64,000 nt of DNA from Escherichia coli. Lineage in GTDB: Bacteria; Pseudomonadota; Gammaproteobacteria; Enterobacterales; Enterobacteriaceae. The position numbers were made by a program, and so were the translations under genes. Of this stretch, positions 15,599-44,290 are shown one piece after another. A model generated the notes under the pieces. The model was not told the DNA's origin. It made no database searches and saw only the letters and a program-made list of their open reading frames with translations. Numbering within the stretch: position 1 is the stretch's first letter; each line of letters begins with the position of its first letter. The stretch lies in the NCBI RefSeq assembly GCF_022846255.1, contig NZ_AP025682.1. One strand, 5' to 3'.

Positions 15599-16648
15599 AT
15601 GGCAACAGGCACGCAGCCCGATGCTGGGCAGATCCTCAACTCGCTGATTAACAGTATTTTGTTAATTGATGACAATCTGGCGATCCATTACGCCAACCCC
15701 GCCGCGCAACAACTGCTCGCCCAAAGCTCCCGCAAATTGTTTGGTACACCGTTACCGGAACTGTTGAGCTACTTCTCATTAAATATCGAGCTGATGCAAG
15801 AAAGTCTGGAGGCGGGGCAAGGTTTTACCGATAACGAAGTGACGCTGGTCATCGACGGGCGCTCGCATATCCTTTCTGTGACGGCTCAGCGTATGCCGGA
15901 CGGCATGATCCTGCTGGAGATGGCACCGATGGATAACCAGCGCCGCTTAAGTCAGGAACAGCTACAGCACGCCCAGCAGGTTGCTGCCCGTGATTTAGTG
16001 CGCGGCCTGGCACATGAGATTAAAAATCCGCTTGGCGGTTTACGTGGCGCGGCGCAGCTACTCAGCAAAGCATTACCTGACCCGTCACTACTCGAATATA
16101 CCAAAGTGATTATCGAACAGGCGGACCGGCTGCGAAATCTGGTCGACCGTCTGTTGGGGCCGCAGCTGCCCGGTACGCGCATTACCGAAAGTATTCACAA
16201 AGTGGCTGAACGCGTGGTGACGCTGGTGTCGATGGAACTGCCGAACAACGTGCGGTTGATTCGGGATTACGACCCCAGCCTGCCGGAACTGGCGCACGAC
16301 CCGGATCAAATTGAACAGGTCTTGCTGAATATTGTGCGCAATGCGCTACAGGCGCTGGGGCCGGAGGGTGGTGAAATCATTCTGCGTACCCGCACAGCGT
16401 TTCAACTGACCTTACACGGCGAGCGCTATCGGCTGGCGGCGCGGATTGATGTGGAAGATAACGGGCCGGGCATTCCGCCTCATTTGCAGGATACGCTGTT
16501 TTACCCGATGGTCAGCGGCCGCGAAGGTGGCACCGGGCTTGGCTTATCCATCGCCCGTAATTTGATTGATCAGCATTCAGGCAAAATTGAATTTACCAGT
16601 TGGCCAGGTCATACCGAGTTCTCGGTTTACCTGCCTATCAGGAAATAA
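15599..16648 (+). CDS. glnL: nitrogen regulation sensor histidine kinase NtrB (NRII)
   Basis: 349 aa; H-box [14 protein letters not shown]-binding G-boxes. Confidence 0.95.
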
Positions 16649-16659
16649 AGGTGACGTTT

Positions 16660-18069
16660 ATGCAACGAGGGATAGTCTGGGTAGTCGATGACGATAGTTC
16701 CATCCGTTGGGTGCTTGAACGTGCGCTCGCTGGAGCGGGTTTAACCTGTACGACATTTGAGAACGGCGCGGAAGTACTGGAGGCGCTGGCGAGCAAAACG
16801 CCGGATGTGCTGCTTTCAGATATCCGTATGCCGGGAATGGACGGGCTGGCGCTGCTCAAGCAGATTAAACAGCGCCATCCGATGCTTCCGGTCATCATTA
16901 TGACCGCACATTCCGATCTGGATGCTGCCGTCAGCGCCTATCAACAAGGGGCATTTGATTATCTGCCCAAACCGTTTGATATCGACGAAGCCGTGGCGCT
17001 GGTTGAGCGCGCCATCAGTCATTACCAGGAACAGCAGCAGCCGCGTAATGTTCAGCTTAACGGCCCAACGACCGATATCATCGGTGAAGCGCCAGCCATG
17101 CAGGACGTGTTCCGGATTATCGGTCGGCTTTCGCGTTCTTCTATTAGCGTGCTGATTAACGGCGAATCCGGCACCGGTAAAGAACTGGTCGCTCATGCCC
17201 TGCATCGCCACAGTCCGCGAGCCAAAGCGCCGTTTATCGCGCTCAATATGGCGGCTATCCCGAAGGATTTGATCGAATCCGAACTGTTTGGTCACGAGAA
17301 AGGCGCATTTACCGGCGCGAATACCATTCGTCAGGGGCGTTTTGAACAGGCTGATGGCGGTACATTATTTCTTGATGAAATTGGCGATATGCCGCTGGAT
17401 GTGCAGACGCGTTTGCTGCGCGTGCTGGCAGACGGTCAGTTTTATCGCGTTGGCGGCTATGCGCCGGTGAAAGTAGATGTGCGGATTATCGCTGCCACTC
17501 ACCAGAATCTTGAACAGCGGGTGCAGGAAGGCAAGTTCCGTGAGGATCTGTTCCACCGCCTGAACGTCATCCGCGTTCATCTGCCGCCACTGCGCGAACG
17601 TCGGGAAGATATTCCCCGTCTGGCACGCCATTTTTTACAGGTTGCCGCGCGAGAGCTGGGCGTAGAAGCGAAGTTGCTGCATCCGGAAACCGAAGCCGCG
17701 CTGACGCGTCTGGCGTGGCCAGGCAACGTGCGCCAGCTGGAAAACACCTGTCGCTGGCTAACGGTGATGGCTGCCGGACAGGAAGTGTTGATTCAGGATT
17801 TGCCTGGCGAACTGTTTGAATCAAACGTACCGGAAAGCACTTCACACATGCAGCCGGACAGTTGGGCAACGCTGTTAGCACAGTGGGCAGACAGAGCGCT
17901 GCGTTCCGGTCATCAAAACCTGCTTTCCGAAGCACAGCCAGAGCTGGAAAGGACGTTACTGACCACCGCGCTGCGACATACGCAGGGGCATAAACAGGAA
18001 GCGGCGCGGCTACTTGGCTGGGGTCGCAACACCCTGACGCGTAAGTTAAAAGAGCTGGGGATGGAGTGA
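16660..18069 (+). CDS. glnG: nitrogen regulation response regulator NtrC (sigma-54 enhancer-binding protein)
   Basis: Start at ATG 16660 ([19 protein letters not shown]); receiver domain, AAA+ domain with GESGTGKE and GAFTGA motifs, C-terminal HTH. Confidence 0.95.
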
Positions 18070-18180
18070 TTCACGGCTTGTGTGTAAAGATTGATTATTG
18101 AGCGCAAATTGCTGGTATTTTGCGCTTTACTGTTCCGATAAGTTCAGTATGATCTTGCCCGGAAAACGGGGAGAGTCATT

Positions 18181-18291
18181 ATGCTGGAATCAATAATTAA
18201 TCTGGTATCGAGTGGCGCAGTTGACAGCCACACACCGCAAACTGCTGTTGCTGCCGTGCTGTGTGCCGCGATGATAGGGCTGTTTAGCTGA
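18181..18291 (+). CDS. yshB: small protein YshB (36 aa)
   Basis: ATG 18181 preceded by RBS GGGGAGAG; MLESIINLVSSGAVDSHTPQTAVAAVLCAAMIGLFS; below ORF-track size cut-off. Confidence 0.55.
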   Translation: MLESIINLVSSGAVDSHTPQTAVAAVLCAAMIGLFS

Positions 18292-18302
18292 AGCTCGTTG
18301 TT

Positions 18303-18456
<154 letters not shown>

Positions 18457-18523
18457 AATCTTGTTCTCAGCACATTGATGGCGCTTTCGTTTTCTACTTT
18501 GTAAACGAAGCGCCATTCACAAT

Positions 18524-19897
18524 TTAAATCACCCGAGAGAACTGCTGCATCCGCGCTTTCTGGCGCAGATAGGTATCAAAGCACATGCAAATGTTGCGGA
18601 TAAGCAGGCGACCTTTCGCCGTCACCTGAATCCCCTTCTCATCCACATCCACCAGCCCATCTTTTGCTAACGGGGCGAGCAGCTTGAGATCTTCCGCAAA
18701 GTAATCAGCGAAGTACAAATCCCACTGTTGCTCAATCGGAGCGTAATCCAGACGGAAGTTGCAGATGAGCGACTTAATCACATCGCGGCGAATACAGTCA
18801 TCACGCGTTAGCGCAATACCACGCCACAGCGCATTGCCTTGTTCATCCACTTGCTGATAGTACTGCTTCAACTCTTTCTGGTTCTGCGCGTAGCAGTCGC
18901 CAATCATGCTGATGGCGGAAACGCCCATCCCCAGCAAATCGGTATCGCCCTGAGTGGTATAGCCCTGGAAGTTACGATGCAACACGCCTTCGCGCTGGGC
19001 CACTGCCAGCTCGTCATCAGGGCGAGCAAAGTGATCCATACCGATAAACTGATAGCCCGATTGTGTCAGGAAGGCGATGGTTTCCTGCAAGATATCGAGT
19101 TTTTGTTGCGGACTCGGCAAGTCAGCATCTTTGATTTTGCGTTGGGCGGCAAAAATAGTTGGCAGATGCGCGTAGTTAAAGACGCTCAGACGGTCAGGGT
19201 TCAGTTCCGCCACGCGTTTCAGGGTAAAGGCGAAACTCTCCGGCGTCTGTTTCGGCAGGCCGTAAATCAGGTCGATGTTGGTGGAGGTAAAACCAATCTC
19301 ACGCGCATGGTTAAGCAGTGCAAAGATGAACTCTTCATCCTGCTCGCGGTTAACCAGACGTTGCACTTCTTTGTTGAAGTCCTGCACGCCCATGCTCAGG
19401 CGATTAAAGCCTTCGGCGCGTAAATGATCGAGTACATCCAGTTCGATTTCCCGCGGATCGACTTCGATCGAAATCTCCGCATCGGCATTGAACTGGAAGT
19501 TTTCGCGCAGCAGCTTCATCAGGCGGCTGATTTGCGCTTTATTCAGATACGTCGGCGTTCCGCCGCCCCAGTGCAATTGGCTGACGTGACGCCCGGCGAA
19601 CAGCGGTGCACGATGGACGATTTCTTGCTCCAGCGCGTCCAGATACTGATCGGCCTTGTGCTGCTGGCGAGTAACAATCTTATTGCAACCGCAGAAGTAA
19701 CAAAGCTTATGGCAGAACGGAATATGTACGTAGAGAGATAATGGACGCTCAGGATAGCGCGCCACGGCTTGTAAAAACGCCTGTTCGCCGAAGTCTTCTG
19801 AAAACTCCAGCGCGGTCGGGTACGAGGTGTATCGTGGCCCGGAATAGTTATATTTCTGGATCAGGGCCAGATCCCAGTCGATTTGCTGTACAGACAT
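18524..19897 (-). CDS. hemN: oxygen-independent coproporphyrinogen III oxidase (radical SAM)
   Basis: 457 aa from ATG 19897 (MSVQQIDWDLAL); CxxxCxxC radical-SAM motif HIPFCHKLCYFCGC; RBS GGAAGGAG. Confidence 0.95.
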   Translation of the reverse strand: MSVQQIDWDLALIQKYNYSGPRYTSYPTALEFSEDFGEQAFLQAVARYPERPLSLYVHIPFCHKLCYFCGCNKIVTRQQHKADQYLDALEQEIVHRAPLFAGRHVSQLHWGGGTPTYLNKAQISRLMKLLRENFQFNADAEISIEVDPREIELDVLDHLRAEGFNRLSMGVQDFNKEVQRLVNREQDEEFIFALLNHAREIGFTSTNIDLIYGLPKQTPESFAFTLKRVAELNPDRLSVFNYAHLPTIFAAQRKIKDADLPSPQQKLDILQETIAFLTQSGYQFIGMDHFARPDDELAVAQREGVLHRNFQGYTTQGDTDLLGMGVSAISMIGDCYAQNQKELKQYYQQVDEQGNALWRGIALTRDDCIRRDVIKSLICNFRLDYAPIEQQWDLYFADYFAEDLKLLAPLAKDGLVDVDEKGIQVTAKGRLLIRNICMCFDTYLRQKARMQQFSRVI

Positions 19898-20661: not shown

Positions 20662-20906
20662 AAGAAAAAAGGCGACAGATTACTCTGTCGCCTTTTTTCC
20701 TGACTCATAACCCTTAACGGGTCTTACAATCCTTGCAGGCCGCCAACACACCCTGTTTTTCCATTAGCCGGAACAATCCGTGTTGATTCCATTTCCATTT
20801 AATTACGTCTCCGGACGTTTATCTTCCTGACAATCCTCTGTCTTCGCCTCCTGGCGCTCCTGACCCTCATCCTGAGTCATTGTTCCTGTTAGCGTCCTCG
20901 CTCTAT
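20662..20906 (-). ncRNA. csrC: CsrC small RNA (CsrA-sequestering)
   Basis: Minus-strand sequence begins ATAGAGCGAGGACGCTAACAGGAACAATGACTCAGGATGAGGGTCAGGAGCGCCAGGAGG and contains multiple GGA motifs in predicted loops; ends at intrinsic terminator hairpin GGCGACAGAGTAATCTGTCGCC plus U-run. Confidence 0.8.
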
Positions 20907-44174: not shown

Positions 44175-44290
44175 CTTGCCGGATGCGGCGTGAACGCCTT
44201 ATCCGGCCTACCGATCCTGCACCCATGTGGGTCTGATAAGAAGCGCCAGCGTCGCATCAGGCATCGTGCATCGATTGCCGGATGCGACAT
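44175..44290. repeat. BIME (REP cluster) downstream of fadA
   Basis: GCCGGATGCGGCGTGAACGCCTTATCCGGCCTAC, CTGATAAGAAGCGCCAGCGTCGCATCAGGC, GCCGGATGCGACA units. Confidence 0.7.

What the first reader, a model, noticed from the sequence alone, without database searches (positions are those of the whole stretch)
18181..18291. 36-codon ORF yshB with strong RBS between glnG and hemN
Short hydrophobic ORF preceded by GGGGAGAG, below the 60 aa cut-off of the ORF track. It is followed by a BIME cluster. Small membrane proteins are commonly missed.
Basis: partly seen in the sequence, partly recalled or inferred. Interest (0 to 1): 0.25.

Follow-up and report, generated by a model that had tools for sequence, protein, structure and literature searches.

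The report
Known small protein gene yshB

Summary
Window 18181-18291 (+) holds an ATG-started 36-codon ORF (MLESIINLVSSGAVDSHTPQTAVAAVLCAAMIGLFS). GGGGAGAG lies 5 nt upstream. The ORF sits between glnG and the convergent hemN and is followed by a REP/BIME cluster.

It is the known gene yshB. RefSeq annotates it as "YshB family small membrane protein" (WP_000893994.1). It scores 72.1 bits against NCBIfam equivalog NF033841 (cutoff 34). It is single-copy in 5425 of 5426 complete E. coli genomes.

All 45 complete orthologous loci, from Escherichia to Erwinia, Brenneria and Mangrovibacter, keep the start, frame, stop, Shine-Dalgarno sequence and glnG linkage. Variable columns by codon position are 20/8/33 and pooled dN/dS is 0.12. 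No other frame stays open.

Published work reports top-down MS detection, a ribosome-profiling-based abundance estimate, RseP cleavage, an own promoter and a Salmonella virulence role.

The most likely mechanism is inferred: an independently transcribed mRNA makes a two-helix peptide whose C-terminal helix inserts in the inner membrane, packs against an unidentified partner through an invariant small-residue face, and is removed by RseP.

Novelty: already known. Interest: low.

The parts
16660..18069 (+). glnG (ntrC), the upstream neighbour, given as context. Its stop codon lies 111 nt before the yshB ATG.
   Evidence: RefSeq annotation transferred from the 100% identical record NZ_AP018784.2. 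The ORF list starts this ORF earlier, at a TTG at 16600.
18100..18127 (+). Hairpin after glnG (GAGCGCAAA / UUUGCGCUU, followed by a U-rich tail). It is the probable glnALG terminator, and its 3' arm overlaps the yshB -35 element.
   Evidence: MFE -11.2 kcal/mol, z = -2.16 against shuffles. The sequence is conserved across genera. The simple terminator scan missed it because the loop is 10 nt.
18126..18153 (+). Sigma-70-type promoter of yshB: TTTACT, 16-nt spacer, TATGAT.
   Evidence: Consensus scan, 9 of 12 matches. GTAT-AT of the -10 element (GTATGAT) is invariant, and its G at least 90% conserved, in the 21 aligned sequences covering all 14 genera; CTTTAC of the -35 element is conserved. PMC9731577 states that yshB has its own promoter. 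The transcription start site was not mapped here.
18154..18180 (+). Short leader of about 27 nt holding a small stem-loop (18155-18173, CCCG-GAAAA-CGGG core) and the Shine-Dalgarno GGGGAGAG (18168-18175).
   Evidence: Sequence. A G-rich SD sits 5-9 nt before the ATG in all 45 loci. The stem-loop is predicted in most genera but is not significantly more stable than shuffles, mean z = -0.7.
18181..18291 (+). yshB coding sequence: 36 codons plus TGA, product MLESIINLVSSGAVDSHTPQTAVAAVLCAAMIGLFS.
18300..18460 (.). REP/BIME cluster: a partial Y-type copy (18300-18321), a Z2-like palindrome (18325-18362), a Y-type REP (18369-18402) and a Z1-like palindrome (18428-18460). It is probably a stabilising or terminating 3' structure for the yshB transcript. 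The Y/Z subtype labels come from my own knowledge of the REP consensus sequences.
   Evidence: Inverted and direct repeats. Rfam naRNA4, a REP-derived family, scores 77 bits against a gathering score of 59.5. The 119-nt fold gives -54.4 kcal/mol, z = -4.75. Copies are dispersed. The cluster's size is specific to Escherichia.
18477..18517 (.). Strong hairpin next to the hemN stop codon. It is a probable bidirectional transcription stop or RNA 3'-end structure shared by the convergent yshB and hemN.
   Evidence: -20.5 kcal/mol, z = -5.0 on the + strand; -19.6 kcal/mol, z = -3.4 on the - strand. Every other genus also has a stable hairpin between the two stop codons. No U-run follows, so it is not a canonical intrinsic terminator.
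18524..19897 (-). hemN, the convergent downstream neighbour, given as context.
   Evidence: Annotation. Synteny holds in 44 of 45 loci.

Best explanation
The ORF is yshB, a genuine, independently transcribed gene for a 36-residue protein that is conserved across Enterobacterales.

Shown here or in the cited papers:
- A conserved sigma-70-type promoter (TTTACT-16-TATGAT) overlaps the glnG terminator hairpin and precedes a leader of about 27 nt with a strong Shine-Dalgarno sequence.
- The frame is under protein-level purifying selection.
- The protein has been detected intact by top-down mass spectrometry.
- It is cleaved by the intramembrane protease RseP in vivo and in vitro.

Inferred:
- The peptide folds as two helices, an amphipathic N-terminal helix (residues 2-14) and a C-terminal helix (17-35).
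- The hydrophobic part of the C-terminal helix (T21-F35) inserts post-translationally into the inner membrane. A 36-residue chain is released before it emerges from the ribosome.
- The invariant HTPQT cap sits at the membrane interface.
- Invariant A22, A25 and A29, with the largely conserved G33 (i, i+3, i+7, i+11), form one small-residue helical face, flanked by invariant C28. This face packs against the helices of an as yet unidentified membrane partner, or against other YshB copies, and modulates that partner. This is how the characterised E. coli small membrane proteins MgrB, MgtS, AcrZ and CydX work.
- RseP cleavage provides turnover.
For: Identity:
- The 481-nt region is 100% identical to E. 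coli records in which the ORF is annotated yshB, WP_000893994.1.
- NCBIfam equivalog NF033841 scores 72.1 bits against a cutoff of 34, over the full length.
- The sequence is identical to the K-12 YshB printed in PMC10470546 Table S1.
- It is single-copy at 95% identity or better in 5425 of 5426 complete E. coli genomes.

Coding:
- All 45 complete orthologous loci in 14 genera keep the ATG, frame, stop position and a G-rich SD. The only length change is an in-frame 4-codon insertion.
- glnG lies upstream in 44 of the 45 loci (the contig begins 44 nt before the ORF in the other), and hemN lies downstream in 44 of 45.
- Among 42 distinct 36-codon alleles, variable columns by codon position are 20/8/33 (chi-square p = 4.6e-4). 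Pooled pN is 0.089, pS is 0.49 and dN/dS is 0.12. The yshB frame is open in 42 of 42, while every other frame has stops in 30-41 of 42.
- yshB pS equals that of glnG and hemN in the same genome pairs, and dN/dS of 0.03-0.12 is near theirs.
- Within E. coli, all ORF differences are silent third-position changes.

Expression and biochemistry, from the literature:
- Top-down MS detection (PMC12529367).
- More than 11,000 copies per cell estimated from Li et al. 2014 ribosome profiling (PMC7549839).
- Own promoter, not induced by nitrogen limitation (PMC9731577).
- Class I RseP substrate in four assays (PMC10470546).

Structure:
- The AlphaFold2 model has helices 2-14 and 17-35, mean pLDDT 74.8.
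- Invariant residues are H17 T18 P19 Q20 T21 A22 A25 C28 A29.
- The N-terminal hydrophobic moment is 0.50.
Against: - The membrane and partner parts are not demonstrated.
- The hydrophobic stretch is short: about 15 residues, with a best 19-residue Kyte-Doolittle mean of 1.53.
- There are no Lys or Arg residues to fix the topology.
- Table S1 of PMC10470546 cites TOPCONS for the YshB segment and TMHMM for the neighbouring rows shown. The predicted N-out/C-in orientation is the opposite of typical RseP substrates, and no experimental topology is listed.
- All RseP assays used N-terminally tagged fusions.
- No solved structure contains a relative, so no partner is known.
- The model's confidence is only moderate, and a monomer model of a 36-mer says little.
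- The transcription start was not mapped here.
Confidence: 0.9

Rival explanations
1. YshB is a real translated peptide, but it is peripheral or soluble (or secreted or released) rather than an integral single-pass membrane protein. It would act at the membrane surface or in the cytoplasm.
For: The hydrophobic stretch is only about 15 residues, the best 19-residue Kyte-Doolittle mean is 1.53, and there are no flanking positive charges. Table S1 of PMC10470546 cites TOPCONS rather than TMHMM for the YshB segment, and no experimental topology is listed. Tagged versions are hard to detect.
Against: An intramembrane protease cleaves it in vivo at chromosomal RseP levels and in vitro. The model gives a continuous 19-residue helix at 17-35. 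The invariant small-residue face is typical of helix packing inside the membrane. NCBI curators name the family a small membrane protein.
Confidence: 0.08
2. The locus functions mainly as a regulatory RNA (a small RNA or dual-function RNA), and the ORF is secondary.
For: The transcript is short, has its own promoter and ends in stable 3' structures. The equivalent position downstream of ntrC in Pseudomonas holds the sRNA NrsZ (PMC9731577). The non-coding DNA upstream is unusually conserved.
Against: Synonymous sites inside the ORF diverge as fast as those in glnG and hemN: pS is 0.60 against 0.58 and 0.62 for E. coli versus Salmonella. There is therefore no RNA-level constraint beyond coding. 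Third positions vary in 33 of 35 codons. No Rfam family matches the ORF at E <= 1. The protein itself has been detected.
Confidence: 0.03
3. The ORF is a chance open frame in an intergenic spacer, or the overlapping antisense 70-aa ORF (18144-18356, -) is the real gene.
For: Short ORFs are abundant by chance: 74 of at least 20 aa overlap this 5-kb stretch. The codon-aligned antisense frame shows a similar dN/dS of 0.15.
Against: Start, stop, frame and SD are kept in 45 of 45 loci across 14 genera. dN/dS is 0.12 with a 20/8/33 codon-position pattern. The antisense frame carries internal stops in 30 of 42 alleles, and its low dN/dS is the known mirror effect of the sense frame. The curated family model matches, and the protein has been detected by MS.
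Confidence: 0.01

Closest known systems
YshB family small membrane protein (NCBIfam NF033841; E. coli K-12 yshB, WP_000893994.1; Salmonella YshB of Bomjan et al. 2019)
   Same: The amino-acid sequence is identical to K-12 YshB. It matches the equivalog model over its full length. It occupies the same position between glnG and hemN.
   Different: Nothing of substance. This strain's allele differs from MG1655 by three silent third-position substitutions, and its REP cluster differs somewhat from those of other strains.
Characterised enterobacterial small inner-membrane regulators (MgrB-PhoQ, MgtS-MgtA, AcrZ-AcrB, CydX-CydAB, Blr)
   Same: The size class is 30-50 aa. Each has one hydrophobic helix and its own small transcription unit. 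YshB was screened together with them and, like Blr, is a class I RseP substrate. The proposed mode of action, helix packing against a larger membrane protein, is borrowed from them. That comparison rests on my own knowledge.
   Different: There is no sequence similarity: Pfam, PDB and PADLOC searches found nothing. YshB has no Lys or Arg, a shorter hydrophobic stretch and a conserved polar HTPQT motif. No partner has been identified.
REP/BIME elements of E. coli, including the REP325-derived naRNA4 (Rfam RF02564)
   Same: The DNA after yshB carries imperfect palindromes of about 35 nt that match the REP consensus, in alternating orientation. One pair scores 77 bits against a gathering score of 59.5 for RF02564.
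   Different: This is not the REP325 locus. The Rfam match most likely reflects generic REP similarity. No evidence here shows that this copy makes a nucleoid-associated RNA.

Membership tests
YshB family small membrane protein (NCBIfam NF033841, equivalog) | Whole-protein score above the curated cutoff, with full-length coverage of the model | tested here: met
   72.1 bits against a cutoff of 34, E = 2.4e-20, residues 1-36 on profile positions 1-40 of 40.
YshB family small membrane protein (NCBIfam NF033841, equivalog) | Sequence identity with the reference E. coli K-12 YshB | tested here: met
   Same protein accession, WP_000893994.1, in MG1655, O157:H7 and other strains. The translation is identical, as is the sequence printed in PMC10470546 Table S1.
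YshB family small membrane protein (NCBIfam NF033841, equivalog) | Orthologous genomic position: downstream of glnG, convergent with hemN | tested here: met
   glnG lies upstream in 44 of 45 complete loci, ending 109-113 nt before the ATG in all of those except Kosakonia (97 nt) and Brenneria (267 nt); in the 45th (L043) the contig begins 44 nt before the ORF. hemN lies downstream in 44 of 45, Brenneria being the exception.
YshB family small membrane protein (NCBIfam NF033841, equivalog) | Reading frame under purifying selection in relatives | tested here: met
   dN/dS is 0.12, the codon-position variability is 20/8/33, and it is the only frame open in 42 of 42 alleles. Neighbour-gene controls are, and within-species differences are all silent.
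YshB family small membrane protein (NCBIfam NF033841, equivalog) | The protein is actually synthesised in the cell | not testable with these tools
   Literature only: top-down MS detection (PMC12529367) and a copy number derived from ribosome profiling, cited from Li et al. 2014. The original tagging paper (Hemm et al. 2008) is not held.
YshB family small membrane protein (NCBIfam NF033841, equivalog) | Integral inner-membrane localisation | tested here: inconclusive
   Hydropathy is borderline, with a 15-residue core and a 19-residue Kyte-Doolittle mean of 1.53. The model gives a 19-residue helix. RseP cleavage of tagged forms supports membrane insertion. The topology is only predicted.
REP/BIME repeat cluster | Imperfect palindromic units of about 35 nt in alternating orientation, matching a dispersed genomic repeat family | tested here: met
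   Palindromes I5 and I6 and inter-unit inverted repeats. A second Y-type copy lies at 44178 with one mismatch, with 0 expected by chance. The median is 32 places per E. coli genome. The Rfam REP-derived family scores above its gathering threshold.
Sigma-70 promoter | -35 and -10 hexamers with 16-18 nt spacing, conserved in orthologues; mapped transcription start | tested here: inconclusive
   TTTACT-16-TATGAT gives 9 of 12 matches, but one such site is close to the chance expectation of 0.7. Near-invariance of GTATGAT and conservation of CTTTAC across 14 genera supports function. PMC9731577 states that yshB has its own promoter. The start site was not mapped here.

The most novel reading that the evidence does not exclude
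YshB may be a specific modulator of an unidentified inner-membrane protein. Its invariant HTPQT cap and the face formed by A22, A25, C28 and A29 would be the contact surface. Its level would be set by the unusually conserved 110-nt glnG-yshB intergenic block and by RseP-dependent turnover. This reading would give a molecular function to a core enterobacterial small protein that is abundant in stationary phase and required for Salmonella intracellular replication. None of my results excludes it, and none demonstrates it.
Probability: 0.3. Interest if true: 0.35.

Novelty: already known. Interest (0 to 1): 0.07.

Why it matters
As a discovery it does not matter. The gene is in RefSeq, has a curated family model and has been studied experimentally since 2008. 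The result is useful as a calibration point for the scan: a correct call on a sub-60-aa gene made from sequence alone, now backed by quantitative comparative evidence. What remains open is YshB's molecular function. The residue-level conservation map (H17-A22, A25, C28, A29) and the highly conserved promoter region give concrete targets for mutagenesis.

Tried and rejected
I used the exhaustive HMMER search instead. That search returned only 15 representatives, many of them frameshifted or extended metagenome gene calls.
- Pfam, the PDB sequence profile and PADLOC gave no hits.
- The primary papers were not held: Hemm 2008, Hemm 2010, Fontaine 2011, Bomjan 2019 and Li 2014. Their content is therefore cited only through papers that quote them, or marked as my own knowledge.
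- I tested whether a leader stem-loop overlapping the SD is a conserved regulatory structure. Hairpins are predicted in most genera, but they sit in shifted registers and are not more stable than shuffles (mean z = -0.7, only 25% below -1). I dropped this as a claim.
- The canonical intrinsic-terminator scan found none in 17900-18700. The hairpins that are present lack U-runs or have long loops.
- I read the upstream region by eye for a sigma-54 (-24 GG / -12 GC) promoter and found no correctly spaced match. This agrees with the report that yshB is not induced by nitrogen limitation.
- The antisense 70-aa ORF was rejected.
- The genome scan pattern ([SAT]HTPQTA[VMF][AV]) returned no Klebsiella, although the SmORFinder preprint places the family in the K. 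pneumoniae core genome. The 46 loci are therefore a lower bound on the family's distribution.

Full report
**1. The observation**

Window 18181-18291 (+) contains an ATG-initiated ORF of 36 codons ending in TGA. It encodes MLESIINLVSSGAVDSHTPQTAVAAVLCAAMIGLFS. GGGGAGAG lies at 18168-18175. Its GGAG core sits 7 nt before the ATG, which is optimal Shine-Dalgarno geometry (read). The ORF lies 111 nt after the glnG stop codon (18069) and 232 nt before the stop codon of the convergent hemN (18524).

The peptide is hydrophobic overall (GRAVY 1.12). The strongly hydrophobic stretch covers only about 15 C-terminal residues, and there is no Lys or Arg.

The downstream "BIME cluster" is real:
- REP-type palindromes lie at 18325-18362, 18369-18402 and 18428-18460, with a partial copy at 18300-18321.
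- A pair of them exceeds the Rfam gathering score for the REP-derived family naRNA4 (77 bits against 59.5).
- The 34-nt Y-type unit recurs at 44178 in the window, with none expected by chance.
- The intergenic query hits a median of 32 places per E. coli genome.

A 36-codon ORF is not remarkable by itself, because 74 ORFs of at least 20 aa overlap this 5-kb stretch. The case for it rests on comparative evidence.

**2. What it is**

The window is E. coli chromosome. Positions 18060-18540 are 100% identical to strains SK1144 and AZ184, and RefSeq annotates the ORF as yshB, "YshB family small membrane protein", WP_000893994.1. The promoter-plus-ORF segment is single-copy, at 95% identity or better, in 5425 of 5426 complete E. 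coli genomes. The peptide scores 72.1 bits over its full length against the curated NCBIfam equivalog model NF033841 small_YshB, whose cutoff is 34. It is identical to the K-12 YshB sequence printed in Table S1 of PMC10470546. It has no Pfam family, no relative in the PDB and no PADLOC match.

**3.

An exhaustive HMMER search of 1.84 billion representatives found only 15 relatives at E <= 1e-3, so the family is narrow. A scan of one genome per GTDB species returned 46 loci. They come from Escherichia, Salmonella, Citrobacter, Enterobacter, Kosakonia, Trabulsiella, Phytobacter, Pluralibacter, Leclercia, Pseudenterobacter, Mangrovibacter, Izhakiella, Erwinia and Brenneria.

- In all 45 complete loci the ORF begins with ATG, ends at the homologous stop and follows a G-rich SD. 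The only length variant is an in-frame insertion of four codons.
- glnG lies upstream in 44 of the 45 loci (in the 45th, L043, the contig begins 44 nt before the ORF). It ends 109-113 nt before the ATG in all of those except Kosakonia (97 nt) and Brenneria (267 nt). hemN converges downstream in 44 of 45.
- Among 42 distinct 36-codon alleles, variable columns by codon position are 20/8/33 (chi-square p = 4.6e-4). Pooled pN is 0.089, pS is 0.49 and dN/dS is 0.12.
- The yshB frame is open in 42 of 42 alleles, while each of the other five frames carries stops in 30-41 of 42. This includes the frame of the 70-aa antisense ORF seen in E. coli.
- As calibration, yshB's synonymous divergence equals that of glnG and hemN in the same genome pairs. 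For E. coli against Salmonella the values are 0.60 against 0.58 and 0.62. Its dN/dS of 0.03-0.12 is close to theirs at 0.02-0.06.
- Selection therefore acts on the protein, with no extra constraint on the RNA.
- Within E. coli, alleles up to about 3% divergent differ from the window only by silent third-position changes.

**4. Published evidence**

- YshB was detected intact by top-down mass spectrometry; it has no tryptic sites (PMC12529367).
- More than 11,000 copies per stationary-phase cell were estimated from the ribosome-profiling study of Li et al. 2014, as cited in PMC7549839 and PMC10502375.
- YshB is a class I substrate of the intramembrane protease RseP, positive in all four in vivo and in vitro assays, all with N-terminal tags (PMC10470546).
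- The Salmonella homologue promotes intracellular replication and virulence (Bomjan et al. 2019, as cited).
- The discovery paper (Hemm et al. 2008) and the other primary papers were not available to read.
Both are contradicted.

**5. Anatomy of the transcription unit**

- A hairpin at 18100-18127 follows glnG (-11.2 kcal/mol, z = -2.2). It is probably the glnALG terminator.
- Its 3' arm overlaps the -35 hexamer of a sigma-70-type promoter, TTTACT-16-TATGAT, at 18126-18153.
- The -10 element GTATGAT is invariant, apart from its G (at least 90% conserved), in the 21 aligned sequences covering all 14 genera, and CTTTAC is conserved.
- Where no indel disturbs the register, the 90 nt upstream of the ATG are 87-92% identical between E. 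coli and Salmonella, Citrobacter or E. albertii. Synonymous sites in the flanking genes differ at about 55-60% in the two inter-genus comparisons (about 30% for E. albertii).
- The leader is 24-29 nt long.
- Downstream, every genus has a stable hairpin or a single REP between the yshB and hemN stop codons, which are 29-100 nt apart. Escherichia has expanded this spacer to 139-607 nt of REPs.
- In the window, a further strong hairpin at 18477-18517 abuts hemN (z = -5.0).
- No canonical U-tailed terminator is present.

**6. How it most likely works**

Shown: the gene is transcribed from its own promoter, translated, conserved as a protein and cleaved by RseP.

Inferred:
- AlphaFold2 on a 25-sequence alignment gives two helices, residues 2-14 and 17-35, with mean pLDDT 74.8.
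- The N-terminal helix is amphipathic, with a hydrophobic moment of 0.50.
- Invariant residues are H17, T18, P19, Q20, T21, A22, A25, C28 and A29.
- A22, A25 and A29, with the largely conserved G33, fall on one helical face, with C28 alongside it. Such a small-residue surface is typical of helix-helix packing in membranes.
- My proposal has four steps. The peptide is released from the ribosome and inserts post-translationally. The HTPQT cap sits at the interface. The small-residue face binds an unidentified membrane partner, or other YshB copies, as MgrB, MgtS, AcrZ and CydX bind theirs. RseP then clears the peptide.

Caveats:
- The hydrophobic core is short and borderline (19-residue Kyte-Doolittle mean 1.53).
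- There are no positive charges.
- The only topology statement is a TOPCONS prediction of N-out/C-in, the opposite of typical RseP substrates.
- A C-terminally His-tagged form was undetectable.
- No partner is known.

**7. Rivals**

- A peripheral or soluble peptide remains possible (about 0.08).
- An RNA-centred function is unlikely, given neutral-rate synonymous divergence and no Rfam hit on the ORF.
- A chance ORF, or the antisense ORF being the real gene, is refuted.

**8. Verdict**

The feature is an already known, annotated and experimentally studied gene. Interest as a finding is low. The only open question is YshB's molecular function, for which the conservation map here offers targets.

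Noticed in passing
window 18070-18180: The glnG-yshB intergenic region is far more conserved than neutral DNA. The 90 nt upstream of the ATG are 87-92% identical between E. coli and Salmonella, Citrobacter or E. albertii, while synonymous sites in the flanking genes differ at about 55-60% in the two inter-genus comparisons (about 30% for E. albertii). The distance from the glnG stop to the ATG is about 110 nt in nearly every species. A block just after the glnG stop (GTGTAAAGATTGAT) is conserved and lies upstream of anything the promoter or terminator needs. No regulator site was identified.
   Followed up: partly
window 18155-18173: A small stem-loop (CCCG-GAAAA-CGGG) in the yshB leader abuts the Shine-Dalgarno G-run. 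Hairpins are predicted at this place in most genera with different stems: UGCGCG/CGCA in Trabulsiella and CGCG/CGC in Mangrovibacter. Their registers are shifted, and their stability is not beyond shuffled controls (mean z = -0.7).
   Followed up: yes
window 18328-18399: An Rfam naRNA4 (RF02564, nucleoid-associated RNA from REP325) match scores 77 bits on the - strand, above the gathering score of 59.5, and 51.9 bits on the + strand. It is most likely generic similarity of a Z2/Y REP pair to the REP325-derived model rather than a true naRNA4 locus.
   Followed up: partly
window 18292-18523, compared with L002-L047: The REP/BIME content of the yshB-hemN spacer varies. The stop codons are 139-607 nt apart among Escherichia species, against 29-100 nt (a single hairpin or single REP) in other genera. 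Within E. coli, many strains align over only 84% of the 481-nt query, in two pieces.
   Followed up: partly
window 18144-18356 (-): A 70-aa antisense ORF overlaps all of yshB. Its frame carries internal stops in 30 of 42 orthologous alleles. Its low apparent dN/dS of 0.15 is the mirror effect of the sense frame. It is spurious.
   Followed up: yes
window about 20714-20880 (-): RefSeq annotates a frameshifted hypothetical-protein pseudogene with an internal stop between yihI and yihA in the identical strain (L001 5655-5821).
   Followed up: no
window 44178-44211 (+): A second Y-type REP unit differs by one mismatch from the copy downstream of yshB.
   Followed up: no
E. coli genome collection: Two of the 5425 yshB matches lie on records labelled as plasmids, and one of the 5426 complete genomes has no match at all. 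These may be assembly or labelling oddities or a genuine deletion.
   Followed up: no
proteins P0002, P0005-P0008: Several cluster representatives of the YshB family in the metagenome-derived protein library are frameshifted or read-through versions, 46-91 aa long with a YshB N-terminus and an unrelated tail. One (P0008) reads through into the antisense of hemN. This shows how noisy gene calling is for this small gene.
   Followed up: no
L028 (Brenneria sp. 4F2): This is the only locus without hemN downstream, and glnG ends 267 nt upstream rather than about 110 nt. The homologue there is 40 aa long, as it is in Mangrovibacter, because of a 4-codon insertion before the HTPQT motif.
   Followed up: no
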